Shown one piece after another: positions 9,135-37,723 of a stretch of 64,000 nucleotides of DNA. A model generated the notes under the pieces. It was given only the letters and a program-made list of their open reading frames with translations, made no database searches and was not told the origin of the DNA. Every line of letters begins with the position of its first letter. Within the stretch, counting starts at the first letter, position 1. Source of the DNA: Spironucleus salmonicida (Eukaryota); contig NC_090599.1 in the NCBI RefSeq assembly GCF_000497125.1, forward strand, positions 1,364,001-1,428,000, read 5' to 3'. A program made the translations under genes and the position numbers.

Positions 9135-10403
9135 ATGAATTAGCCAAATAATCCAAACAATAGCCTTTATGATCTAGAGAGCTTTTAGAGCATTACTAGC
9201 TACAATATTAATAAATAAAACATTGAAACATTATCAGCAACATAATAACGTATGCGATAATTATAAACTCGATTAAATAGGAAATAAACATAAGATGCAA
9301 CTGTAGTATTATAGGACCTTGCAACGAATCAAAATAATAAAGATAGTACCATAGATGAATAAATTATTGAAAAATTACCATCAATACTTACTTCATTATA
9401 AGATCCTTCTACAGATTATGCCGTTGATCAATAGACAGAGTATCAATAAGTAGTAGACGATAAAATATCTAAATTATAATACAATCAAGATAATTTTATT
9501 ACAAAATAAACATTTTCGATTTTTTAAAATAGTGTAGAATCAATTTTAAGTGACCTAGTCCAATAATTAGAATTATAAAAACACCATATTCTACATTTAG
9601 AATAGGATAATTAAGAATTAAAAAACGAAATAATACTTATAAAAATATCTCAAAAGAAATTGGTAGGTCCTGAAATTAGGTTTATCTTTGAACTTTAAGG
9701 CTCGATCTTTACTATTGATGAAAGGGGATCATTATTTAATAATGGTAATATACTGTTTAATATGACTTAAACTGATGTATCTAGTGTATTCTGTGATTAA
9801 ACTTCTTTTATAGTAGTAATAGGTGAAATTCTGATGCATATCGACTTTAGCGGTGCCGTGCGATAGGAACTGCATTTTAACGCGATCACGTGCGCACTCC
9901 TGTACCAGGGAAGTCCACTGGCGGTTGAGGGCAATATGCTACACTTCAAGGGCCGGACAGTGTAGCTTGGATTTTACCCCGTTGGGGGTACGCAGGTTAC
10001 GCACCAGTCTAAAGACATTCTGGTGCTCTACGACACGGATCAGCTATACTTCTACTCCCTGATCTAGGAGAAGCTGCTGGTTGTGCTGCCGGGCCTATCG
10101 GGAATCCACATCGTGAAGTGCCTCGCGGGGCAGCTGTTCGTGCAGATTGGGAGTAGCGTGCTCCACGTGGATCTCGAGCTATTCGGCGTGGTGCGGCAGT
10201 TCGACTGTGAGAGCCCTATAGTGACCTTCGGGTGTGCGGACGGGCAGCTGGTGGTGCTGTGCGCGGACGGCATCAAGTACGAGTTTCAGGCCGCTAGGGT
10301 CATAAAGACGCGTCTGGCAGAGGAAATCCTTTGCGGAGTCGTTGGAGCTGCCCAGCTGGCCTTCCTGGGGGATGCAGGCTACTCCACACTGCCGCTGAAG
10401 TGA
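9135..10403 (+). CDS. Hypothetical protein with N-terminal coiled coil and beta-rich C-terminus (422 aa)
   Basis: Continuous frame read from ATG 9135 across the AT-to-GC transition (~9840) into track ORF 10083-10403. Stop lies in AAGTGA. Confidence 0.75.
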
Positions 10404-10461
10404 GGTTCGATACACTCCCTATCCATACAGTACCCAGCAACCCTCCCTATTCCCTTCCGCA

Positions 10462-11958
10462 ATGCTAGACTTCGCACGCAACCTGCGCCAGTCCCTGGGC
10501 GACGCGCTGAAGTTCGCCGACCATGCAACCCTCGCGGGATTCGACACTGAGTTCTCCTCGGAGCAGCCCCAGTTTGCGAACCCCTTCGACGCACCGGAGG
10601 TAATCTTCGCCACCGCGGCGGCCCTCGCGAACAGCGGTTGCCTGCTGCAGGTTGGGATCTCCATGCTGGACAGCAAAGGTGAGAGCTCCACCTGCTCGGT
10701 GTTCGTATGCCAACATGACGCCAAGATCAGCATCTCTGCCCTGAACTTCCTCGCCGGGAACGACTTCGACTTCAAACAGTACAGCACCCAGAGCCTGCGC
10801 GTCGGGATAGACTACGAGTGCGAGATAGCATTCTGGCGGAAGACGATGGGCGAGCCCGACGAAGAGGCGTTCGAGGGCTTCCCAGCGGGATACGGTGAGA
10901 TTGCCCAGAGACTCAAACAGGAGGAGATCGATTTCGGCATAGAACTGGACATCGGCCACTTTCTCCGCATGAAGCGGATGCAGCACAGCTTCCTTGCTCA
11001 CGAGGGCGTAGAGCAGGTGGTGAGCATCGTTCCGGCGCTGTACCCCTCCCGGGGCGCGGGAAAAATTCTGCTGCATGTGCGCGTTGTAGATAGTCCCGCG
11101 CGGCGCCGCCAGCTGCTCGCGGAGTCAGTCGGCCACATTGAGCTCGACCTGAAGCACATCATGCTTGTGTTCCAGCGTCTTGCCCAGCGTCGCGTACGTA
11201 CAGTGGGGTTCTAGGCGCTCACGGACTGTCTGCTGCTCCATAACGCCTTTCTGGGCAAGAAGCTCAGCTCCTACAGCAGGTTCATGGCAGACATTTTCGG
11301 CATCATCCCCAACTTTCTGGATGTGCTGCTCGTCCTGCAGCACCCGAACACGCAGGTCCTCCTCTAGCAGATCGCATCCAAGGTGAAGCGCGTACAGCCG
11401 AACAAGTCACTCTCTGGGTACTTCCACGTCCTATACGGCGCCGGAGACTCGCATGCTCACGACGCAGGCTACGACGCACTGATGACAGTGCGTGTGTACG
11501 ACTGCCTCTGCAGGTAGCAGGCGACCAACTGCTTCAAGGTCAAGAACGCGCAGAAGTTCGACGAGGTGCGGTTTGAGTGCTATGCGAATTCCTTCACGAC
11601 GTACCGCTGCTTCAACCTCCTCCAGCAGACGCCAGCGCCGGTGAGGCACAGCATGTACCCTCTTGCGAAGTTCCCCGGCAAGAAGGCCGACTACAGCGTG
11701 CAGCAGGCCGTTAAGGACCGGGCATGCGTGGCCAACTTGCTGCAGGGCACCCAAATCGGGGTCGTGTACAGCGAGGTTGCACTGCCGGAGGCGAGGCGGG
11801 CGTGGGTATTCAACCGGGATGGGCGGGTCCGGCACAGGTGGCTGAAATGGCTTGTGGGCGACTAGGTGATAGACGGTAAGTTCGCGAGCATTTTGACCCC
11901 TACCGCGGCCAGGAAGGTATTTGAGGCGGTTGAGCTGCGCAAGGGAAGCGCGAAGTGA
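10462..11958 (+). CDS. CAF1-family DEDDh deadenylase, PARN-like (498 aa)
   Basis: FDTEF (ExoI), LQVGIS, ALNFLAGNDFDF, VGFQALTD (ExoII), HDAGYDALMT (ExoIII). Track ORFs 10462-11214 and 11566-11865 join when TAG=Gln. Confidence 0.85.
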
Positions 11959-11963
11959 AGTGA
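11954..11963 (+). terminator. AGTGA putative polyadenylation signal overlapping the TGA stop (tandem example)
   Basis: AAGTGAAGTGA here. AGTGA coincides with the stop of about 20 genes, e.g. 4314, 6613, 10399, 19554, 22937, 26489, 32943, 37719, 40429, 46071, 48309, 51631, and on the minus strand 21420, 23099, 26504, 40443, 41500, 48330, 60647. Confidence 0.7.
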
Positions 11964-11987
11964 TTGTAAATTAACTAAAAATTAATG

Positions 11988-13229
11988 TCAGAACTTTATA
12001 TCGCTATCAAGGATAGCATATTAACTGTTTGGTATTTTCTTCAAATCTGAGGGGAGGGGTATCATAGGACTATTAAGCATTTCATCAATAGCCTGACATG
12101 TTTCAAGCTCTGCAGGGCCTGATTAAAAGGTAATAGCCAAACCTTTATGCCCAAATCTTCCACATCGACCAATCCTATGAAGATAATCATCTGCATACCT
12201 AGGGACATCAAAATTAATAACAACATTTACGGTACGAATATCAATTCCTCTCGTATACAAATCTGTTGCCACTAAAATTCTAGTGTTTTATTAGGAGAAC
12301 TCATGAAATACTTTAGAACGTTCAAATTATGTTAGTTTAGAATGGACAAATGAAGAAGGAATTTCAAGTTAGCTTTACACTAGATGATGTATTTGTTCGC
12401 ATCTTTAAGTAGAATTAACAAAAATAATCGCCTAACGAATCTATAAATGTTTAAATAGTATCATAAGTAACTTAAACTTAAGATCTTATTAACGTACCTA
12501 AGCTACATATTGAGTAATACCAGAAAGAGTCAATTTGTCTTATTGACAGTTTATAAATTCTGGATTAGTCATATGTAATTAGGTAAATTGTTATACTTCT
12601 GATTAATATGTTGCTGAGAATATCATTGTTTAGTGGTCTTTGTGCATATGACTTTTAATAATTAGCAAGTCGGCTAATGGCTCATGTTGTTGAATTATTT
12701 TATCCGCTTCATCAGCAACTAAAATTTTAGTCTAACTTAAATTTATTAATTTTTCTTGCAAAAAAACTCTGAGTTTTAGGGTTGTTGCAATTAAAATTGA
12801 AGGGTTATATTAATTTATACGCATTATATCATCTCCATGTGAGTTTCCCCCGACTAAGCACATAACTCTATTTTAAACACCATTAACTAATTTTCCTAAA
12901 TTCTACGTAACAGATGATATTTACATGGCAAGCTCCCTTGTATTTACAACAATTACTGCTTGTATAGTATTAATTTATGGTTTTATTTAATTTAATATTG
13001 GTATTAAAAAAGCTCCTGTTTTTCCTGTACCATTTTTAGCTCTCGCAACTATATCAACAAGAGTTAGGGCAATTGGTATAGTTTTTTCTTAAATTGGTGT
13101 TGCTGTAATAAAATTTACAGCTTGAAGGGAGGTAACAAGATATGGTTTTAAATTAAGCTAAGAAAATTTTACTCCTGAGCCTCTGATGTCTTCTGTTTAT
13201 TCACGATTGTCTTAGGTAGGTAAAGACAT
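11988..13229 (-). CDS. DDX6: DEAD-box RNA helicase DDX6/Dhh1 (413 aa)
   Basis: [65 protein letters not shown]. Confidence 0.9.
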
Positions 13230-19558: not shown

Positions 19559-20491
19559 GCTAATGTTTGTTTTTGTAGCTTATATGAGGATATGAGATTT
19601 TTAAATTTAAATTTATATTCTATAGTGTAGAATAATGAGCTAAACTTTTTAGTTATTAAAGTATAAATATTATATGTTATCTATTATAAAATATAATTAA
19701 TATCAAATTTGTTTTGATTTAAAGGGGTTTATTTAGAGATATTAAGTAAAATAATATATAATAAATCACTGCATTATAAATATATTAATAAACAATATTA
19801 ACATATGTCTGTTAGTATTATCATGAATATTTTTAAAGATAAGATATATTAGTAAGCTTAACCAAACAAATAGTAAATTTATCTCTAAGTTTCATTTTAG
19901 TGAGCGATGCTACCTCCGCGGGGACGAGTAACCGCATCCCTCGCTTTAGCGCGCAGCTGAGCTACCTTTATTGTGGATTAAATACTATCCATAGCGCACC
20001 GAAGCATCGGCTTCCTAATCTTCGTGGGTTAGGGTGACGTGCCGTGCCACCATTACCATTTCACCAGAGCATCAGATTCTCCTGCTACACCATAAATGCT
20101 GGGTATGCGGGCTAGGCTGCAGGTCCGTGACAGAGGCCGATATGACCCTTCGCAACTCTATTGCTCGATGCAGCTATGCGGCAGGGCGCCCTCGGACGCG
20201 TAGCAGGATGCCATGTAGAGCTTAATTGGGCCTCCCGGCTGCCTCACACCTAGGTGGTGGGAAGCGTCCCCACCAGACCAGGCACCTAAATCCGGCGTGT
20301 GGGCCTTTACTATGGGAATATATGGACCGCTTCCGCACACATCGCTCCGATCCGGAGACTGCACGGGAAAACTGCAGCCCGTACCGCTGCTGAGTACCCG
20401 CCCGTGGCCGGCACGCATCTGTGATGGACCGGACCAAATTCTGGTATATCCGTATATACGCAATAAAAGCCGCCCGAGGTGAAATAATTTA

Positions 20492-20507
20492 CCCACTTCA
20501 CTATCAA
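20492..20507 (+). promoter_or_regulatory. Pyrimidine-rich YCACT motif just upstream of ATG (example: annexin)
   Basis: CCACT/TCACT/ACACT lies within about 4-20 nt of the ATG at 3455, 5736, 15694, 20493/20498, 25142, 46421, 48794 and 56828, and on the minus strand at 23573 and 41449. Confidence 0.55.
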
Positions 20508-21410
20508 ATGGCCGACTACCGACCTGCAGCAGAGAGGCTCTACAAGGCTATGAAGGGGCTCGGCACGGACGAGGCCACCCTCATAGATGTTGCGGCCTCA
20601 CACACGGCGGATGAACGCCTGGCCATCGCCGAGGCCTTCGCGGGGCTCTACGGCGACACGCTCGAGAAGTGGCTCAAGAAGGAGCTGTCCGGACACCTGG
20701 AGAAGCTGATGGTGCAGCTCTTCAAGGGCCGCTACCAGATGTGGGCGCAGTACCTGGACGACGCTGTGCGGGGCGCCGGCACCGACGAGAAGCTGCTCAT
20801 CGAAATGATATTCCTCATGAGCGACCAGGACCAGCAGCGTGTTGAGGTGGAGTACCGCAAGCTCTTCAACAAGGACCTCACAAAGACCATTGAGGGCGAT
20901 ATCTCCATCGGCCACTGGGCAAAACTCATCAGGGCCTGGCTGCACGCCAAGAACGACGCGCCCGCTAATCCAGAGAAGATTGCGGACGACCTCTGGGCGG
21001 CGGCGAAGGGAGCTGGCACTGACGAGCAGGTCTTCATGCAGGTTCTCGCCAACTGCCAGCCAGATGTCTACCACCAGGCATGCGACGCCTTCCTGCGCAA
21101 GTACCGCAAGGACGTCGCCGAGGTCATCAAGCGCGAGTTCTCCGGGAAGTCCGAGAAGGCCTTCCTCGCGGCCCACTACTCACTCTTCGACAAGCGCCAG
21201 TCTATCGCCCGCAACCTATACCTCAGCTATAAGGGCGCCGGCACCGACGAGGCCCGCCTTATAAGGCAGACTGTGCTCTTCAGCGACCAGCTCCGCGGCT
21301 AGCAGCTGGTGGAGGCCTACAAGATCTTCGGCGACGTTGTGAAAGACACCAAGCGCGACCTCTCGGGCAAGTTCGAGAAGGCTGTCCTCGCCGTATGGGG
21401 CCTGAGCTGA
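20508..21410 (+). CDS. Annexin (300 aa), copy 1
   Basis: Four annexin repeats MKGLGTDE, VRGAGTDE, AKGAGTDE, YKGAGTDE. The single TAG at 21300 reads as Gln, extending the protein to ...DLSGKFEKAVLAVWGLS*. The ATG follows CCACTTCACT. Confidence 0.95.
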
Positions 21411-21419
21411 GAGATTTCC

Positions 21420-22094
21420 TCACTTTCCCTTCCCCCCGAGCCGCCCGTACACCTGCAGGTTGTGGAAGTTCGCCACCAGGCGCACTCGCAGCGCGATCAC
21501 CCTCTCCACCTCGCGAGCGCAGAGGTCGGTACGCTCCTGTAGGATGGAATGCGTCCGCGCCGGCTGCACCGTGAAGCTACGCAGGTAGGCGAACTCGGGG
21601 TCCTCCAGTGCTACCCGCATCTGGCACTTTAGCTCGTGGAAGGCCCCCGTTATCCTGCGCCGAGCGTCCCGGGGCGTCTCGGCCTGTCGGAAGCGCCGGA
21701 ACGCCTCATTCCAGTCCGGGACCTCCCAACGTGGGTGGCGGGGCTCGCTCGGGAAGGCGCAACCCTGAAGGAGCTTGGAGGTAGAGATTACCGGTGCGAA
21801 ATTTCGTGCTGGTGATGTGAGGAAGAACGTATGGTATGTTGCATCTAGGTCTGTACGGAGAGGACTTATCACTGTACACTAGGTTACTGATCTAAATTAA
21901 CGTTATATTTTTAGTTAATGAATAGCTGGCTATGGAATCTGCTAAATAGAAGTTTGTATAAAAGAAGCTGGTAATGATGTAAAGCAGTATCCCGGAAGCT
22001 TAAAAAGAGAAGTACTGATTTTCTTAGTTTGTTTTGGTGGTTGAGTAATTGATAGTACTTGCTGAACTACATTCTGCCGTCTTCCTAATCTCAT
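21420..22094 (-). CDS. Hypothetical protein (224 aa); 3' part lies inside the duplication
   Basis: Frame checked from ATG 22094 (MRLGRRQNVVQQ) to ...GRLGGKGK*. Stop lies in AAGTGA. Confidence 0.7.
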
Positions 22095-30229: not shown

Positions 30230-32947
30230 ATGGAGTTACTTGAAGAAGACTTTCGTATTGATAACTAGTTCTCTGAGTCAGATAATGAATAAGTATCAAA
30301 AAATCCACTGATAGCTGCTGGATTATCTGAAGATTAGGCTGCTCATGTTAGAAAATTAGGCTTTCATAAGTTGACAGATATTTAAAAATAGTCACTACCA
30401 TTGTTATGTGCTGGATCTTCAGCAATAATAGTATCAAGAACTGGTTCTGGTAAAACATTAGCATACTCTTTGCCGATATTAAAGAAGCTTATTGAGCATA
30501 GAGGCATAGCTGGTATAAGATCTATTATATTAGCACCAACCAGAGAACTAGCACTTTAAATTACTAGAGTTATTCGTTAACTTTCTAGCTATAGTTCTGA
30601 TCCTTTACGAATTGCGTTACTGACAGGTGGAGATTCTTTGGAATAATAATTTGAAGTTTTAGCTAATAATCCTGATATTATTGTTGCAACACCAGGTCGA
30701 CTACTTTTCCATATAGAATAAGTACCTTAGCTCGAAGGTTTGCTTAAAACTGTAGAATATATGGTAATTGATGAAGCAGATTAAATGTTTGAATAATAAC
30801 TTTTACCTTAGGTTCAAGATATTATAGCAAAGCTTAAATAACCATAAACAGTTCTATGCTCAGCAACATTACCAACTTAGTTATCTGATTTTACCAAAGC
30901 TTGTATGAAATCTCCTAAACTTATTTAAGCAGAAAGTGAATCATTACCAGACGAACTTACTTCTGTTCATATTTTATGTGGTAGAGATGACAAATTATCA
31001 TCCTTTTTACATATATTTAGAGAAGTTATGCCCCTTAAATGGCGTGTTCTTATGTTTGTGAGTACTAGATATCATGCTGAATATATACATGAAGTACTAT
31101 CCGGTCTTGGAATTAAATCATCACCTCTTTACGGAACAATGGATCAAGAGTAAAGAAATCTTACACTTGCTGCATTTAAAACACGTCAAACACGTGTATT
31201 GATAGCCACAGACGTAGCAGCAAGAGGTGTAGATATAGAACAATTGGAATGTGTAGTTAATTTTAATTTCCCATTTAATTCTCGTGTGTATCTTCATCGT
31301 GGAGGTCGTGCTGCCAGAGCTGGCAAATTTGGCCTATATTTAAATCTTATTGATTAGGATGAGTTTCCTTATTTACTAGATGCTTTATTGCATGCTTAAC
31401 TACCAATTTAATATGATGGAGAACAAATTTCAGTATGGGAAGACGTTAATAAAAAACTCCTTTCTTGCTCTGTATAATTTGACTTTTAAAAACTTAACTT
31501 CAATGTAGAAGATGGGAAAATGCTAAAATATGAGTTTAAAAAGTATATTGCTAGTTACTTTGAGGAAAACTTATAGTAATTGATCAAGGAAACTGTTGAG
31601 ACTCGCAAAATTGAAAAAACTGAAGCTGAGGTTTATTTAGCCTTACAATTCAAACGCTTATATCAAGATATTGGTAGCATGGTAGCTGGATTAGAATATG
31701 AAGCAATACAAAAGATTCGTTAATATTTAATATTTTGTAAAAATGCATAAGAATTAGGTAATTCTCCATATTAATTCTCATCGTATGTCGGAAAACTATC
31801 AAAATCACTTGGATCCGTTATTGGATCTATTCCTTAGTAATTAGTAGATACCCAAACGTCTAGGCTTTAAAACACTCGTATAAATGAAGATCCACAATTA
31901 ATTCTTCTATAAGGCTCAATCAAAAATTCACTATAATAGTTGAATAAATAGAAACGGTCTGCAACATTCTAATCATTCTAGCGTGCCAAATAGATTAGTG
32001 CTTCATGCGGTTTCCATCCTGTATTCGCGTAATTTTATAAAATTAAGTAAACAACTTTTGGGGAGCAGAAAGCAAGATTAGATATTATATAGAATTTTAA
32101 AATCACCACTGATGAATTACTAAAGAAAGCCAGCGATGGTGATGAATCAGCATCAGTTTAACTGAAAGTTCGTCGTCTCATAGAAAAGAAACGTCGTATT
32201 GATGACGCAACTAAATAATAAATATTTGGCGAAAAGACAACTGAAAGCTAGTGGTGCATGGAAGGTCTAGGTTTAAATACACCACAAATGGTCCGTGAGT
32301 TAGACGAAAAAATAAAGAAAGCGGTAGGTACAGATGACAGGCAACTACTAGTTTAACGTAAAGCTAGTAAATAAGCAATTTAGATAAAGGATATTGCAGC
32401 TGATTTAATTGATGATGAAAATCTAAGACCATCTGGGCCTAAAAAGATATGGGATAGTGTTAAAGGGCGCTGGGTGAGTATTGAAAGTCAAAACAAAGCA
32501 CATAAAGAAAAGGATACATTAAAAATGGATCACAGTGGCTAGTGGCAAAAAGTAGAAAAAGAGAAGTAATTTTATCAGAAATGGGTTAAGAAATCTAAGA
32601 CATAAGTATCAATTGCCGGATCACGTGAAGAAAATACTCATCGTGATAAATTTATTGGCTAGGGTGAGGGGCGTGTATAAAAACGTATTCTAACATAAAA
32701 AGCTACTGCAGGTACTTAACCTAAAGCAGTGGTGACAACTTATTAAGATAAACAACTTTTAGATCGTTAATTAGATGGGAAAGCAGCTAAGAAAAAAACA
32801 GAAACTAAGGCAAGTCGAATGAGTAAGGTGGCATAAAAGATAAAAACATAAGGCAAAGATTATCATAAAGAACTGGATAGAAAGCGGGCAAAAGGTAAAC
32901 GTGTGGAAGATAATAAATGGCGTAATATGATCAAACGGTCAAAGTGA
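30230..32947 (+). CDS. DBP10: DEAD-box helicase DDX54/Dbp10 (905 aa)
   Basis: RTGSGKT, PTRELALQ, DEAD, SAT, HRGGRAARAG. The C-terminal KKIWDSVKGRWV...YQKWVKKSK is DBP10CT-like. Confidence 0.85.
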
Positions 32948-33037
32948 TAACTAATATTTTATTTAAGTAATATTTACAGTTTCTTTATTTATAATAAAGA
33001 AAATACAAATTTTTAGTTGAAGCGAAGTTTCATATCG

Positions 33038-33399
33038 CCTCCAAGCTCCTTCAGGGCTGCGCCTTCCCGAGCGAGCCCCGCCACCCGCGTTGGGAGGTCC
33101 CGGACTGGAATGAGGCGTTCCGGCGCTTCCGACAGGCCGAGACGCCCCGGGACGCTCGGCGCAGGATAACGGGGGCCTTCCACGAGCTAAAGTGCCAGAT
33201 GCGGGTAGCACTGGAGGACCCCGAGTTCGCCTACCTGCGTAGCTTCACGGTGCAGCCGGCGCGGACGCATTCCATCCTACAGGAGCGTACCGACCTCTGC
33301 GCTCGCGAGGTGGAGAGGGTGATCGCGCTGCGAGTGCGCCTGGTGGCGAACTTCCACAACCTGCAGGTGTACGGGCGGCTCGGGGGGAAGGGAAAGTGA
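33038..33399 (+). pseudogene. 5'-truncated duplicate of the 21420-22094 gene
   Basis: Only the 3' ~120 codons were copied. The upstream sequence is unrelated and I saw no in-frame ATG between the DBP10 stop and the breakpoint. Confidence 0.6.
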
Positions 33400-33408
33400 G
33401 GAAATCTC

Positions 33409-34311
33409 TCAGCTCAGGCCCCATACGGCGAGGACAGCCTTCTCGAACTTGCCCGAGAGGTCGCGCTTGGTGTCTTTCACAACGTCGCCGAAGATCTTGT
33501 AGGCCTCCACCAGCTGCTAGCCGCGGAGCTGGTCGCTGAAGAGCACAGTCTGCCTTATAAGGCGGGCCTCGTCGGTGCCGGCGCCCTTATAGCTGAGGTA
33601 TAGGTTGCGGGCGATAGACTGGCGCTTGTCGAAGAGTGAGTAGTGGGCCGCGAGGAAGGCCTTCTCGGACTTCCCGGAGAACTCGCGCTTGATGACCTCG
33701 GCGACGTCCTTGCGGTACTTGCGCAGGAAGGCGTCGCATGCCTGGTGGTAGACATCTGGCTGGCAGTTGGCGAGAACCTGCATGAAGACCTGCTCGTCAG
33801 TGCCAGCTCCCTTCGCCGCCGCCCAGAGGTCGTCCGCAATCTTCTCTGGATTAGCGGGCGCGTCGTTCTTGGCGTGCAGCCAGGCCCTGATGAGTTTTGC
33901 CCAGTGGCCGATGGAGATATCGCCCTCAATGGTCTTTGTGAGGTCCTTGTTGAAGAGCTTGCGGTACTCCACCTCAACACGCTGCTGGTCCTGGTCGCTC
34001 ATGAGGAATATCATTTCGATGAGCAGCTTCTCGTCGGTGCCGGCGCCCCGCACAGCGTCGTCCAGGTACTGCGCCCACATCTGGTAGCGGCCCTTGAAGA
34101 GCTGCACCATCAGCTTCTCCAGGTGTCCGGACAGCTCCTTCTTGAGCCACTTCTCGAGCGTGTCGCCGTAGAGCCCCGCGAAGGCCTCGGCGATGGCCAG
34201 GCGTTCATCCGCCGTGTGTGAGGCCGCAACATCTATGAGGGTGGCCTCGTCCGTGCCGAGCCCCTTCATAGCCTTGTAGAGCCTCTCTGCTGCAGGTCGG
34301 TAGTCGGCCAT
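33409..34311 (-). CDS. Annexin (300 aa), copy 2
   Basis: Same translation as copy 1. Confidence 0.95.
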
Positions 34312-35159
34312 TTGATAGTGAAGTGGGTAAATTATTTCACCTCGGGCGGCTTTTATTGCGTATATACGGATATACCAGAATTTGGTCCGGTCCATCACAG
34401 ATGCGTGCCGGCCACGGGCGGGTACTCAGCAGCGGTACGGGCTGCAGTTTTCCCGTGCAGTCTCCGGATCGGAGCGATGTGTGCGGAAGCGGTCCATATA
34501 TTCCCATAGTAAAGGCCCACACGCCGGATTTAGGTGCCTGGTCTGGTGGGGACGCTTCCCACCACCTAGGTGTGAGGCAGCCGGGAGGCCCAATTAAGCT
34601 CTACATGGCATCCTGCTACGCGTCCGAGGGCGCCCTGCCGCATAGCTGCATCGAGCAATAGAGTTGCGAAGGGTCATATCGGCCTCTGTCACGGACCTGC
34701 AGCCTAGCCCGCATACCCAGCATTTATGGTGTAGCAGGAGAATCTGATGCTCTGGTGAAATGGTAATGGTGGCACGGCACGTCACCCTAACCCACGAAGA
34801 TTAGGAAGCCGATGCTTCGGTGCGCTATGGATAGTATTTAATCCACAATAAAGGTAGCTCAGCTGCGCGCTAAAGCGAGGGATGCGGTTACTCGTCCCCA
34901 CGGAGGTAGCATCGCTCACTAAAATGAAACTTAGAGATAAAATCATAAATACTTATTCACGTATAAATTACACTTACAAATATGTCAATAAGTTTTAAGC
35001 AATAATTATATAGGCTAATTAGTTATGAAGTAATTGGATAAATGCTAATTATTAACGTTTTTAATTATTATTACATTTAAAATGTGATTTTTACTTTTAA
35101 GTATATAATAATAAATAAAAGAAGTATTTTGTAAAAGGATTCCGTTTCCATTTTAAAAA

Positions 35160-36530
35160 ATGGTACTTCCAGACTCATTAATTTAAAGAGTCAAGACTTA
35201 ATTAGCACAGTCTGTTCCAGTAGGTGATATAATTAATGAAGCAAGACTATAAGGTCATTAAATATCATCTTCAACGATTTATAAAATTAGATAAACATAT
35301 ACTCCTATTGTAAATAAACCTACTTCATTTGTTGAGATTAAACCATAAAAACTACCATAATAATAGTTGTATTAACCGCCAGTGTAAATACCATAGCGGA
35401 CCGAAATAGTAAGTAAGCTACTAAATCAAGTCCCATTAAATTTTGAATAGAATTAGCCTGAATTAGGGATCGCAGCAGTAATTAATTAAAGAGCAATTGT
35501 TATTAATCTAGTGTCAGGGACTATTATATAGTAAGCTAGGGAATGGTAATTTCTAGGTAGCTCAGTAGAGGCAGAATTTAGTAAATTTGCTGGATATATA
35601 TAATTGAATAGTCCGGCAGTTGTTGTCATTGCATCGCCTTATTTTAATTAACATGAATAAATAGTTATCAATAATGAGTAAATAGATGTAAGAAATGTGA
35701 TAACTAATGTTTAACTGTTTTTAAAACATGATGCAGAAGTCGTAGCCTTAAAATATCAATCATTGTTCAAGAAAAAAATTATTTATTTACACTTCAGCTA
35801 TGATTATGTTAAAGTGTGTGTTAGAGATGATTCTTCCAGCTAAATCATACCAATTGAGCATTTTATTGTGTAAAGACATCTATAAGATAAAAGGCACGAA
35901 TCATTTTGTTAATCACATTAAGATTGTATAAGTTAATTATGTGTTGAAAAAGCGACTCGTTGTGAAGCTGATTTTGAATTTATAGCTAATTATATAGCCT
36001 AAGTTTTGTATGCTCTTTATCTTATGAATCCAACTAGCTTGTTAGTTCTAGGTGGGGAATTATTTTAAAAAAATATTTCTGATGTTAAATTGCGAATCGG
36101 AACGCCTTTAGTGAGATAAACTCCATTAAGTAACATTAATGATTTATAGTCGTCCCCTATTCTTATTGAGAATATCAGAGTCCAATTTGCTAAATATTAT
36201 GCAAATTTCGGACCAACTTTGAATTTGGCAGCAGTTATTTACTAGGCAGATGACGACTCCGTATTAAAAGGGGCGCTGCATTAAGTTCTTAAAGAATAAA
36301 AAGATTCATCTGGATCTACCCCATGTGATTTTATTTAGGCTATAGCAAATATGAGCCCTCAAATGGGATATGGATTATAATAGTATTCGAGCCCTACTAT
36401 ATACAAAAGCTAAACGGGTCTGCTTAGATTTGAAACAGCAAGCGTATTTAATAGAACCCCAGCACTAGACAACTTAGTTAAAAATTATGATGAAGATCGA
36501 TCGGACAACTCGACTCCAAAATTCGGGTGA
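35160..36530 (+). CDS. ROK-family-like protein with N-terminal HTH (NagC/XylR-type architecture), 456 aa
   Basis: HTH-like VGDIINEARLQGHQISSSTIYKIR. ROK-like motifs in order: VINLVSGTII, VVVIASP, LFLKHDAEVVAL, IIYLHFS, IEHFIV...CQSHQDC, YIAQVLYALYLMNPTSLLVLGG, DDDSVLKGA. Confidence 0.6.
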
Positions 36531-36586
36531 ATATTCTTTTATTATAATATATTTTTAATGTAATATACCATTCCGCAATTTAAATA

Positions 36587-37723
36587 ATGTTAGATTCCTC
36601 TCGACCTGAGCCATTTGTAGCTCTATGTCCCCATAGATTGCCACTTCCACCTCTATTAGCATCATAGACACCATTAGATGCTGGGAAATCTTCATCTAGA
36701 CCGTTTGGAAGAAAATAATTGTAACCTTTACCTTGTTTAACAGCAGTAGACCCACCTTTATTATAATCAGTGAAGGAAAAGAAAACACTTGTTGATCCCC
36801 ATGATATACTAGCTTAACCAAAACTTAATATGGCAGACTTAATAAACCTAGCCCAGGCATGTTAGCGCTCGCAAAGACCACTTGCTGAAGCTTTAGCGTA
36901 CTGGAATGCTGCAATTGAGCATGAAAATGCGGGTCTTCACGTAATAGCATAATCATTCTTCGAAAAATTCATTGCTCCTTGTAGAAGGGCCTAATATACC
37001 CCTGGGGTTGTTACAGGGCTTTCATCTATTTCAGCATCACTATTTTTATAGGGAAATTATAAAGAGTCCGTTTAAACTTGTGAGCAAGCACTCTAATTAT
37101 TAGATGAGACTACGGAAGTTGTCTAAAAAACATCAGGAGGCTGGCTTACCTCTAACTATTTGGCAGCGTCTTTATTACTTAACATTGGATTATCTTTTCT
37201 TTAACTTTTTGATTATGAAGCTGCAACTTTAGCATTTGCACGTGCACTCTAGCATGCGCTTTAAACTTAGGACAAAAACTGCGAAGGTGCTATTTGTGCT
37301 TCACAAGCTATTTGTAATGCCCTCTCAGGCGATTTTCAAAAGGTAGATTCTTGCCTTGATCGTTATATCGAAATAACATAAATTTAGGAGACAGGATTAG
37401 AGACAACTTTGGGATTAAAATCTCTCAAATTAGTATAATAAAATCAAGTATCGCAAACGTTAAGCGATAGCGTTAGACAGGCAACTTTAAATGCATGTGT
37501 ATGCTTCCTTAGAATTGGGGCGATGGCTCGTGTTCATGGTGATTTTTAACGGGCGCGTCATTTTTGCTAAAGAGCTTACAATGTTGGAATCGTTTATGGA
37601 TTCTAAAAATGTGCAGTTTAAGCTGGGGTTAGTGTCGGGGTGTGTGAAGCTGAAATCGACGATATAGAGGCAGGTTAGAATGGAGATATTAAAGAGATTG
37701 TAGAATTTTGGGAAGTCGAGTGA
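36587..37723 (+). CDS. TPR-repeat protein (378 aa)
   Basis: Helical repeats such as LQGNYKESVQTCEQALQL, NIGLSFLQLFDYEAATLAFARAL and HGDFQRARHFCQRAYNV. Confidence 0.75.

What the first reader, a model, noticed from the sequence alone, without database searches (positions are those of the whole stretch)
35160..36530. Bacterial-style ROK repressor architecture (HTH + kinase-dead ROK domain) in a eukaryote
Seen: ROK-like motifs in the canonical order. These are VINLVSGTII (~DLxGEIL), VVVIASP (~GIGVPG), LFLKHDAEVVAL (~VENDANAAAL), IEHFIV then CQSHQDC (~ExGH...CxCGxxGC zinc site), MNPTSLLVLGG (~LNPExIVLGG) and DDDSVLKGA (~DDAxLIGA). The DxGGT ATP loop and GTGIG are absent. The N-terminus has a helix-turn-helix-like segment (VGDIINEARLQGHQISSSTIYKIR) followed by a Q/P linker. 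Established: HTH + ROK domain without the ATP motif is the architecture of the sugar-sensing repressors NagC, Mlc and XylR, whereas eukaryotic ROK proteins are normally kinases. Inference: a laterally acquired, now AT-rich and TAR-recoded one-component sugar-sensing transcription factor in a protist with few known transcription factors.
Basis: partly seen in the sequence, partly recalled or inferred. Interest (0 to 1): 0.8.

Follow-up and report, generated by a model that had tools for sequence, protein, structure and literature searches.

The report
Diplomonad HTH-like plus dead ROK-like protein
This is a real diplomonad-specific gene that joins a small, probably DNA-binding three-helix module to a degenerate bacterial-type (ROK-like) sugar-kinase fold without its ATP loops, so it resembles bacterial sugar-sensing repressors but seems to have been assembled independently.

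Summary
The ORF 35160-36530 (+), read with TAA/TAG=Q, is a real gene. It has the best codon score of its six frames. It has fragmentary relatives in Hexamita inflata and in unnamed TAR-recoded sources. Poly(A)-bearing contigs of four runs cover parts of it.

No curated model calls it ROK: Pfam and NCBIfam give nothing, and hhalign against E. coli ROK proteins gives nothing. Weaker evidence converges on a ROK-type ASKHA fold.
- Language-model structures of this protein and of a homolog with 27% identity both have only ROK/glucokinase neighbours.
- A family profile hits only the B. subtilis ROK fructokinase among the PDB sequences (E 0.0023). It aligns a shared H...CxxHxxC motif.
- Two low-confidence AlphaFold models rank ROK structures first.

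Both phosphate loops are gone. Residues 1-47 are the best-conserved part. They fold as three helices that resemble transposase- and recombinase-type HTH domains, not the winged helix of NagC and Mlc.

No bacterial relative was found, so transfer of a ready-made repressor is not supported. An independent fusion within hexamitine diplomonads fits better. DNA binding and sugar sensing are untested, and most canonical sugar-contact residues appear to be replaced.

The parts
35160..36530 (+). Whole gene: 456 codons plus TGA, 40 in-frame TAA/TAG read as Q
   Evidence: Searches give the ORF and its translation. One search gives the best codon score of the six frames, and 8 of 2000 shuffles stay open. 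One search gives homologs. One search shows contigs of 4 of 4 runs (one study) covering parts of 35151-36529.
35160..35300 (+). aa 1-47: conserved three-helix HTH-like module (MVLP...GHQISSSTIYKIR)
35301..35453 (+). aa 48-98: Q/P-rich, poorly conserved linker
   Evidence: pLDDT is below 35 for the 10-residue blocks covering aa 51-100. The Q+P+N+S+T fraction is 0.51. Homologs differ in sequence and length.
35454..36323 (+). aa 99-388: degenerate ROK-type ASKHA (sugar-kinase-like) domain
   Evidence: Atlas structure neighbours are all ROK or glucokinase, for P0001 (10 of 10 rows) and for homolog P0009 (4 of 4 rows). Foldseek and VIA on the AF2 models rank ROK first. The family profile hits the ROK fructokinase.
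35475..35492 (+). aa 106-111 AVINQR: the position of the DxGGT phosphate-1 loop, degenerate
   Evidence: In the MAFFT alignment with five E. coli ROK proteins, V107 sits at the Asp, N109-Q110 at Gly-Gly and R111 at Thr. Homologs have D-I/V-Q-E-T or D-I-Q-Q-S at this place.
35727..35738 (+). aa 190-193 HDAE: the likely counterpart of the ROK NDAN motif (catalytic Asp)
Evidence: MAFFT places it two columns off. Asp is present in 3 of 4 lineages, and Hexamita has Ser.
35853..35927 (+). aa 232-256: IEH ... C-x2-H-x2-C, the ExGH and zinc-motif counterpart
   Evidence: H234, C250 and C256 are invariant across all 10 rows of family plus E. coli ROK. HMMER aligns the motif with H156...CPYHGDC of chain 1xc3_A.
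35970..36056 (+). aa 271-299: the best-conserved helix and the NPxSxxVxGG strand (counterpart of the ROK DPxxIVxGG motif)
   Evidence: Invariant D271, E273, A276, Y278, A280, Y284, L288, P291, V296 and G299. It aligns with the DPxxIV(I/L)GG of E. coli ROK proteins and of the fructokinase.
36324..36527 (+). aa 389-456: low-confidence tail with short motifs shared with the Hexamita homolog
   Evidence: pLDDT is 21-30 for the 10-residue blocks covering aa 401-456. SVFNRTPAL aligns with KLFSRPPTA, and NSTP with NQTP, in the alignment.

Best explanation
The gene encodes a protein family restricted, as far as can be seen, to hexamitine diplomonads. The parts are a 47-residue three-helix HTH-like module at the extreme N-terminus, a variable Q/P-rich linker, a ROK-type ASKHA domain and a disordered tail. 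The ASKHA domain has lost both ATP phosphate loops, so it is a pseudokinase, but it keeps a His...Cys-x2-His-x2-Cys zinc-type motif like that of a ROK fructokinase.

The most likely working (inferred, not shown) is as follows. The pseudokinase domain serves as a dimerisation scaffold and possibly as a ligand-sensing one, as ROK large domains do. It presents two HTH modules to DNA, giving a one-component-style regulator.

The architecture is analogous to bacterial NagC, Mlc and XylR but was assembled independently. A kinase of the fructokinase branch of ROK, itself probably of old bacterial origin, was fused to a transposase- or recombinase-like HTH in the hexamitine lineage and then degenerated. 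Whether the ligand is still a sugar is open.
For: **Real gene.** Codon score and shuffles, homologs, and contigs with poly(A)-like ends at neighbouring genes that also cover this ORF in 4 of 4 runs of one study.

**The fusion is conserved.** HTH, linker and first strands lie in one reading frame in P0001, P0008 (H. inflata), P0017/P0021 and P0022. A search with the HTH alone among proteins of 96-2000 aa found only this family, 4 of 239 candidates.

**ROK-type fold.**
- Atlas models: P0001, 10 of 10 rows ROK or glucokinase; TM 0.44-0.48 by query and 0.52-0.72 by target.
- Atlas models: P0009, 4 of 4 rows; TM 0.56-0.58 by query.
- The family profile hit only 2 of 177,635 PDB sequences at E<=10. 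Both are the B. subtilis ROK fructokinase (E 0.0023).
- One homolog fragment gives a sub-threshold PF00480 hit in the right register.
- Foldseek on the domain model: 17 of the first 18 rows are ROK-type kinases, at E 3.5e-3 to 5.4e-2.

**Pseudokinase.** DxGGT and GTGxG are absent.

**ROK dimers form through the large domain.** PMC10031466, passages read.
Against: - No curated model recognises either domain.
- hhalign against five E. coli ROK proteins is null.
- For P0001 the Atlas TM by query stays under 0.5.
- By the low-identity alignment, three of the five canonical sugar-contact positions are replaced. The Hexamita copy also lacks the Asp and the Glu (KHS, VQH).
- No DNA-binding, localisation or ligand data exist.
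- A bacterial HTH-ROK protein, MecR2 (PDB 4ija, among the hits), is recalled to act as an anti-repressor by protein contact and not as a sugar-sensing DNA binder.
Confidence: 0.45

Rival explanations
1. Non-DNA-binding pseudokinase. The ROK-like domain is a scaffold or a regulator of another protein, and the conserved N-terminal helices are a protein-interaction or targeting module.
For: There is no Pfam HTH hit. The structural matches of a 47-residue three-helix unit are only middling. Net charge is about +2. The invariant MVLP at the very N-terminus is unusual for an HTH. The MecR2 precedent is recalled, and 4ija is among the hits.
Against: The best-fitting structures are nearly all DNA-binding HTH domains. 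hhalign also puts ISSSTIYKIR on the recognition helix of Pin HTH_7.
Confidence: 0.28
2. One reading: a bacterial NagC/Mlc/XylR-type sugar-sensing repressor acquired whole by lateral transfer and then made AT-rich and recoded.
For: The domain order is the same and the DxGxT motif is lost, as in most bacterial ROK regulators (PMC3553997, passages read). ROK repressors (1z05, 5f7p, 2hoe, 4ija) appear among the fold matches.
Against: No bacterial relative was found among 1.84 billion representatives. hhalign against a profile that includes NagC and Mlc is null. The N-terminal module is shorter, has no predicted wing and does not align with the NagC and Mlc N-termini. The zinc motif is CxxHxxC, not CxCGxxGCxE.
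Confidence: 0.07
3. An active, very divergent sugar kinase with an N-terminal extension.
For: It has the ASKHA fold. The Asp of HDAE, Glu233-His234 and the zinc-type motif are kept in this protein. The nearest structure is a fructokinase.
Against: Both glycine-rich phosphate loops are replaced in every family member seen: AVINQR, DIQET or DIQQS in place of DxGGT, and no GTGxG. This protein also lacks the first Asp.
Confidence: 0.05
4. The ROK likeness is an artefact of weak predictions, and the central domain is an unrelated, lineage-specific alpha/beta fold.
For: There are no significant curated-model or hhalign hits. pLDDT is low. All fold scores are below the usual confidence marks. A feature score of 0.80-0.85 is reached by many shuffled proteins (notes).
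Against: Five routes agree on the same family, three of them on the same protein (the fructokinase). The routes are a sequence profile, two structure predictors, two aligners, and a homolog of 27% identity treated separately. The motifs are collinear.
Confidence: 0.1

Closest known systems
Bacterial ROK-family repressors (NagC, Mlc, XylR)
   Same: An N-terminal DNA-binding-type module comes before a ROK sugar-kinase-like domain whose DxGxT ATP motif is degenerate. The His of ExGH and a Cys-rich zinc-type motif are kept (PMC3553997, passages read).
   Different: There is no detectable sequence relationship. The N-terminal module is a 47-residue three-helix unit followed by a roughly 50-residue low-complexity linker, not an ~85-residue winged helix. 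The zinc motif is CxxHxxC. Most canonical sugar-contact residues look replaced. The host is eukaryotic.
Bacillus subtilis ROK fructokinase YdhR (PDB 1xc3, 3lm9, 3ohr)
   Same: It is the only PDB sequence hit by the family profile (E 0.0023). It shares H...C-x2-H-x2-C and the (N/A)Pxx(L/I)xxLGG stretch. It is the top VIA match and the second Foldseek match.
   Different: YdhR is titled a fructokinase crystallised with ADP and fructose, so it is an active enzyme. The family here lacks both phosphate loops and carries an N-terminal HTH-like module and a tail.
Tc1/mariner-type transposase and serine-recombinase HTH domains (Tc3 1u78, Sin 2r0q, Pin HTH_7)
   Same: Three short helices of the same size. 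Fits are rmsd 1.6-1.7 over 43-45 residues at 21-22% identity. The recognition-helix-like string ISSSTIYKIR aligns with VGVSTLYKRF of PinE.
   Different: No Pfam HTH model matches. No transposase or recombinase catalytic domain is attached. hhalign probability is only 23%.
MecR2 of Staphylococcus aureus (PDB 4ija), an HTH-ROK anti-repressor
   Same: An HTH plus a ROK-like, non-kinase protein. It is among the structural matches.
   Different: It is bacterial and has a winged-helix N-terminus. Its mode of action, protein contact and not sugar-controlled DNA binding, is recalled from the literature and was not checked here.
Eukaryotic hexokinase-type sugar sensors and inactive hexokinase-like proteins (yeast Hxk2, plant HXK1/HKL; recalled)
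   Same: ASKHA sugar-kinase folds used for regulation and not, or not only, for catalysis in eukaryotes.
   Different: They belong to the hexokinase branch, have no DNA-binding module of their own and act through partner proteins. This comparison rests on recall only.

Membership tests
ROK family (Pfam PF00480) | Match to the curated family model above its gathering score | tested here: not met
   P0001 has no PF00480 hit even at E<=10, and no NCBIfam hit. Of 9 homolog fragments, 1 hits PF00480, at 13.6 bits against a cut-off of 22.9.
ROK family (Pfam PF00480) | Two-lobed ASKHA sugar-kinase fold | tested here: met
ROK family (Pfam PF00480) | ExGH followed by a Cys-rich zinc-binding motif | tested here: met
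   It is met in a variant form: E233-H234, then C250-x2-H253-x2-C256. H234, C250 and C256 are invariant with five E. coli ROK proteins. The motif aligns with H156...CPYHGDC of the ROK fructokinase chain. Zinc binding itself was not tested.
ROK family (Pfam PF00480) | DxGxT ATP (phosphate-1) motif of the kinases | tested here: not met
   AVINQR stands in place of DxGGT. Homologs have DIQET, DVQET or DIQQS. The GTGxG region is also absent.
Bacterial ROK repressors (NagC/Mlc/XylR type) | N-terminal winged-helix DNA-binding domain homologous to those of NagC and Mlc | tested here: not met
   There are only 47 ordered residues, with three helices and no strand in DSSP. A poorly conserved Q/P-rich linker follows. 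No HTH_24 or MarR-type Pfam hit was found. In the joint alignment no family residue is placed opposite the bulk of the NagC/Mlc N-termini; only a few isolated linker residues of P0001 and P0009 fall there. The linker model is of low confidence, so an unpredicted wing cannot be fully excluded.
Bacterial ROK repressors (NagC/Mlc/XylR type) | Detectable common descent with bacterial members | tested here: not met
   Seven relatives were found among 1.84 billion representatives, none named as bacterial. hhalign against a profile containing NagC and Mlc gives Prob 0.4% and 0.25%.
Bacterial ROK repressors (NagC/Mlc/XylR type) | Conserved sugar-contact residues (Gly, Asn, Glu, His, Glu as listed in PMC3553997) | tested here: inconclusive
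   By the 12-15% identity alignment, only Glu233 and His234 are kept. SPY stands for xPG, His190 for Asn, and CIS for CxE. The register is uncertain at this identity.
Bacterial ROK repressors (NagC/Mlc/XylR type) | Sequence-specific DNA binding relieved or altered by a sugar effector | not testable with these tools
   This needs EMSA or DAP-seq and ligand-binding assays.
Three-helix HTH (homeodomain-like, transposase or recombinase type) | Three-helix bundle with a helix-turn-helix recognition helix | tested here: met
Three-helix HTH (homeodomain-like, transposase or recombinase type) | Match to a curated HTH family model or profile | tested here: inconclusive
   There is no Pfam HTH hit for P0001 or for 5 N-terminal fragments at E<=10. 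hhalign against three E. coli Pin HTH_7 segments gives Prob 22.8% and E 9e-4 over 15 columns in the recognition-helix register.

The most novel reading that the evidence does not exclude
Hexamitine diplomonads independently re-invented the bacterial 'one-component' design. A ROK fructokinase-type enzyme was fused to a transposase- or recombinase-like HTH and stripped of catalysis. It now works as a metabolite-sensing, dimeric, sequence-specific transcription factor in a eukaryotic nucleus. This would be a convergent counterpart of NagC, Mlc and XylR, and a eukaryotic transcription-factor class with no described member.
Probability: 0.3. Interest if true: 0.75.

Novelty: new variant of a known kind. 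Interest (0 to 1): 0.55.

Why it matters
Gene regulation in diplomonads is poorly understood, and direct metabolite-sensing DNA-binding proteins are a bacterial hallmark that is rare in eukaryotes. If this family binds DNA through its N-terminal module and senses a small molecule through its dead kinase domain, it would show convergent assembly of the ROK-repressor architecture in a eukaryote. It would also give a simple, testable link between carbohydrate supply and transcription in a group that includes fish and human parasites. If it turns out to be only a scaffold, it still documents a conserved ROK-derived pseudokinase that current databases list as 'conserved hypothetical'. Two literature searches found nothing that links ROK to diplomonads.

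Tried and rejected
**Curated models and direct sequence searches**
- Pfam, NCBIfam and phmmer against PDB with P0001 gave nothing relevant.
- hhalign of the family alignments A3 and A6 against five E. coli ROK proteins was null.

**Searches for more relatives**
- Word-based homolog searches returned only the query and fragments already known. The third, with the HTH alone among longer proteins, added only P0022.
- The metagenome scan with the N-terminal patterns matched 222 stretches, and none was confirmed by tblastn. A first try failed because the alignment had no conserved stretch.
- An N-terminal profile against 836 table-6 ORF segments of the window found no paralog. The next best E was 0.017.

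**Structure prediction**
- Both AlphaFold jobs gave low-confidence models, so residue-level mapping of the zinc and ligand sites on a model was given up.
- Foldseek found no match at E<=0.001.
- In the full-length VIA search, P-loop kinases (Grc3, Clp1) tied with ROK at the top. I read this as noise from a poor model, because they fall behind ten ROK or glucokinase chains in the domain-only search.

**RNA-level checks**
- Rfam on 33000-37000 gave no match.
- The GC-rich flank 34396-34941 folds no better than shuffles, with z -0.09 and +0.58.

**Expression**
- No listed holder is on record as RNA.
- In one search some stretches of the ORF, and the spacers next to it, have no contig. This proves nothing.
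- No poly(A)-like loose end was seen for this gene.

**Not done or not available**
- No whole genome is held. So I could not test whether the organism's own fructokinase or glucokinase is the parent.
- The Nocek et al. paper on YdhR is not held. The statement that its CxxHxxC residues bind zinc is therefore recalled.
- Supplements of the papers were not opened. The annotation and expression tables of the diplomonad genome papers may already list this gene.

Full report
**What is there**

With TAA and TAG read as Gln, window 35160-36530 (+) is a 456-codon ORF ending in TGA, with 40 in-frame TAR codons. Under table 11 there is no ORF here.

The window is an AT-rich (about 25-30% GC), gene-dense eukaryotic stretch. 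Its table-6 ORFs encode a kinesin, a DEAD-box helicase, WD40, TPR and CAF1 proteins, and annexins of the Annexin-E1 type. That is a hexamitine-diplomonad type of genome. No whole genome is held for it.

**Is it a gene?**

- The annotated frame has the best codon log-odds of the six frames: 0.131 against -0.379 to 0.034. The model was trained on three Pfam-confirmed neighbours.
- Only 8 of 2000 shuffles of the 1371 nt keep a frame open throughout.
- An exhaustive HMMER scan of 1.84 billion cluster representatives found 7 other proteins at E 1.3e-12 to 2.2e-4.
- Of these, P0002 and P0008 are named Hexamita inflata 'conserved hypothetical' proteins, and P0009 is a further member of P0002's cluster. 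The rest are unnamed ENA, Logan and MetaClust fragments, which look cut at TAR codons by standard-code gene calling.
- Two TAA codons of the window (Q14, Q34) fall on columns that are invariant Gln in the family. This supports the recoding.
- Contigs of four coded runs from one study cover parts of 35151-36529 in 4 of 4 runs.
- The same runs carry poly(A)/poly(T) loose ends 12-15 nt beyond the TGA of three neighbouring genes (places 32961, 33397, 37738). So they behave as RNA, although the record does not say so.
- That spacing matches what PMC3916229 (passages read) describes for a hexamitine: TGA as the only stop, a G just before it (here GGTGA), and poly(A) about 14 nt downstream.

**Anatomy**

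- aa 1-47: a conserved N-terminal module.
- aa 48-98: a Q/P-rich linker that varies in sequence and length between homologs.
- aa 99-388: an alpha/beta domain.
- aa 389-456: a low-confidence tail.

The N-terminal module is the best-conserved part. It shows 52-60% identity and 25 invariant positions, including M1-V2-L3-P4 and Q34-ISSSTIYKIR-44. The central domain shows 27-30% identity.

The fusion is not a gene-model artefact. P0008 (H. inflata), P0017/P0021 and P0022 each read from the N-terminal module through the linker into the first strands of the central domain. A search with the module alone among proteins of 96-2000 aa returned only this family.

**Is the central domain ROK-like?**

Negative results:
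- Pfam, NCBIfam and phmmer against PDB found nothing.
- hhalign against a profile of NagC, Mlc, NagK, NanK and Mak from E. coli K-12 was null, at Prob 0.4% and 0.25%.

Positive results, each weak but convergent:
1. The language-model structure held in the Atlas for P0001 has 10 of 10 listed neighbours in ROK or glucokinase clusters. They cover aa 95-386, at TM 0.44-0.48 by query and 0.52-0.72 by target.
2. The separately modelled Hexamita homolog P0009 (27% identity) gives 4 of 4 such rows, at TM 0.56-0.58 by query.
3. A profile of the domain alignment A6 hit only two of 177,635 distinct PDB sequences at E<=10. Both are the B. subtilis ROK fructokinase (1xc3, 3lm9, 3ohr), at E 0.0023. The alignment puts the family's H...D..C-x2-H-x2-C on H156...CPYHGDC, and the NPxSxxVxGG stretch on APKKIILGG.
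4. One homolog fragment gives a sub-threshold PF00480 hit in the correct C-terminal register, at 13.6 bits.
6. The DSSP order is beta-beta-beta-alpha-beta-alpha twice, the ASKHA pattern.

I take the ROK-type ASKHA fold as likely (about 85%) but not proven.

**Motifs**

These come from a joint MAFFT alignment with the five E. coli proteins.

- H234, C250 and C256 are invariant over all ten rows.
- The DxGGT loop reads A-V-I-N-Q-R here. It reads D-I-Q-E-T, D-V-Q-E-T or D-I-Q-Q-S in the homologs.
- The GTGxG loop has no counterpart.
- HDAE is the likely counterpart of NDAN, though MAFFT is two columns off.
- LLVLGG aligns with IVLGGG.

The zinc-type motif is the CxxHxxC form seen in the fructokinase, not CxCGxxGC. 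The protein is almost certainly not a kinase.

Five sugar-contact positions are listed for ROK proteins in PMC3553997 (passages read). PMC10031466 (passages read) gives the matching NagK residues and states that dimers form through the large domain. Of these five, only Glu233 and His234 look retained. The Hexamita copy has lost the Asp and the Glu as well. Sugar sensing is therefore an open inference.

**The N-terminal module**

- AlphaFold gives three helices (5-16, 21-30, 37-47) at pLDDT about 80.
- VIA matches for aa 1-52 are almost all DNA-binding three-helix domains:
  - also SETMAR, TrpR, GcrA, Myb and homeobox domains
- hhalign against three E. coli Pin HTH_7 segments places aa 30-44 on the recognition helix, but only at Prob 23%.
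- No Pfam HTH model matches.
- The module is not the roughly 85-residue N-terminal domain of NagC and Mlc, with which it does not align.

**Origin**

No bacterial relative was found. The DNA-binding-like module is of a different type from that of the bacterial repressors. The nearest ROK is a kinase of the fructokinase kind.

This argues against transfer of a ready-made repressor. It argues for a fusion within the hexamitine lineage, between a ROK kinase gene and a small HTH, followed by loss of catalysis. ROK is mainly bacterial, so the kinase gene may itself be an old acquisition.

PMC3916229 (passages read) lists a fructokinase in one hexamitine that Giardia lacks. Whether that enzyme is of the ROK type was not checked here.

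No hit in Giardia appeared. The family diverges fast, so that absence is weak evidence.

**Mechanism**

My best reading, at about 45%, is a dimeric DNA-binding regulator. The pseudokinase domain supplies dimerisation and perhaps ligand control. The rivals are:
- a non-DNA-binding scaffold or anti-regulator (about 28%)
- no true ROK relationship (about 10%)
- direct transfer of a bacterial repressor (about 7%)
- an active kinase (about 5%)

**Literature**

- Searches for 'ROK' together with 'diplomonads' found 0 papers.
- A search for 'ROK family' with four diplomonad names found none with the ROK term among the 15 papers listed, out of 219 that held two or more of the terms.
- The named homologs are annotated only as conserved hypothetical proteins.

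**Verdict**

It is a new variant of a known kind, of moderate to good interest.

Noticed in passing
window 19878-21781 and 33038-34941: A perfect 1904-nt inverted repeat (100% complementary, 11,256 nt apart), GC-rich in an AT-rich genome (window bins spanning the first arm are 59% GC). Each arm carries an identical 328-codon annexin ORF. Contigs of the coded runs leave the repeat at both of its ends (33038 and 34941) into sequence unlike this locus. That may be the flanks of the other copy, but I did not check this against the window.
   Followed up: partly
window 34396-35059: The GC-rich stretch upstream of the annexin start, with no convincing ORF, lies in the same contigs as the annexin coding region: 33397-35059 in X1 and 33038-35013 in X3. 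This may be an unusually long 5' leader or a separate abundant RNA. It has no Rfam match and folds no better than shuffles. It ends about 100 nt from the start codon of the gene studied.
   Followed up: partly
window 32961, 33397, 37738: Poly(A)/poly(T) loose ends lie 12-15 nt beyond the TGA of the DEAD-box helicase, annexin and TPR genes. This matches the stop-codon-linked polyadenylation described in PMC3916229 (passages read).
   Followed up: partly
window 10001-12000, 20001-22000, 32001-36000: There are islands of 41-59% GC in a 25-30% GC background. They coincide with a CAF1-family ribonuclease gene and the two annexin copies, which use very few TAR codons (1-4, against 20-145 in neighbouring genes). 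The cause (expression level, recent origin or conversion) was not examined.
   Followed up: no
homologs P0008, P0002, P0009 (Hexamita inflata): On one 729-kb contig the family member is annotated as two proteins, P0008 (N-part) and P0002 (C-part). P0008 diverges from P0009 right after GRQYQ, and P0009 reads through that point. This could be a frameshift, an assembly error or a split gene model.
   Followed up: no
window 35433-35450 (aa 92-97) and 36441-36467 (aa 428-436): Two short motifs are conserved outside the folded parts. The first is P-x-(W/L)-(N/D)-F about ten residues before the first strand: PLNF here, and PAWNF or PVWDF in homologs. The second is (V/L)F(N/S)R(T/P)P in the tail, shared with the Hexamita homolog. 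Their function is unknown.
   Followed up: no
window 36587-37723: The TPR-protein ORF downstream starts at ATG 36587, but contigs of all four runs begin at 36594-36600. The true start codon may lie further in, or the contigs may simply be trimmed.
   Followed up: no
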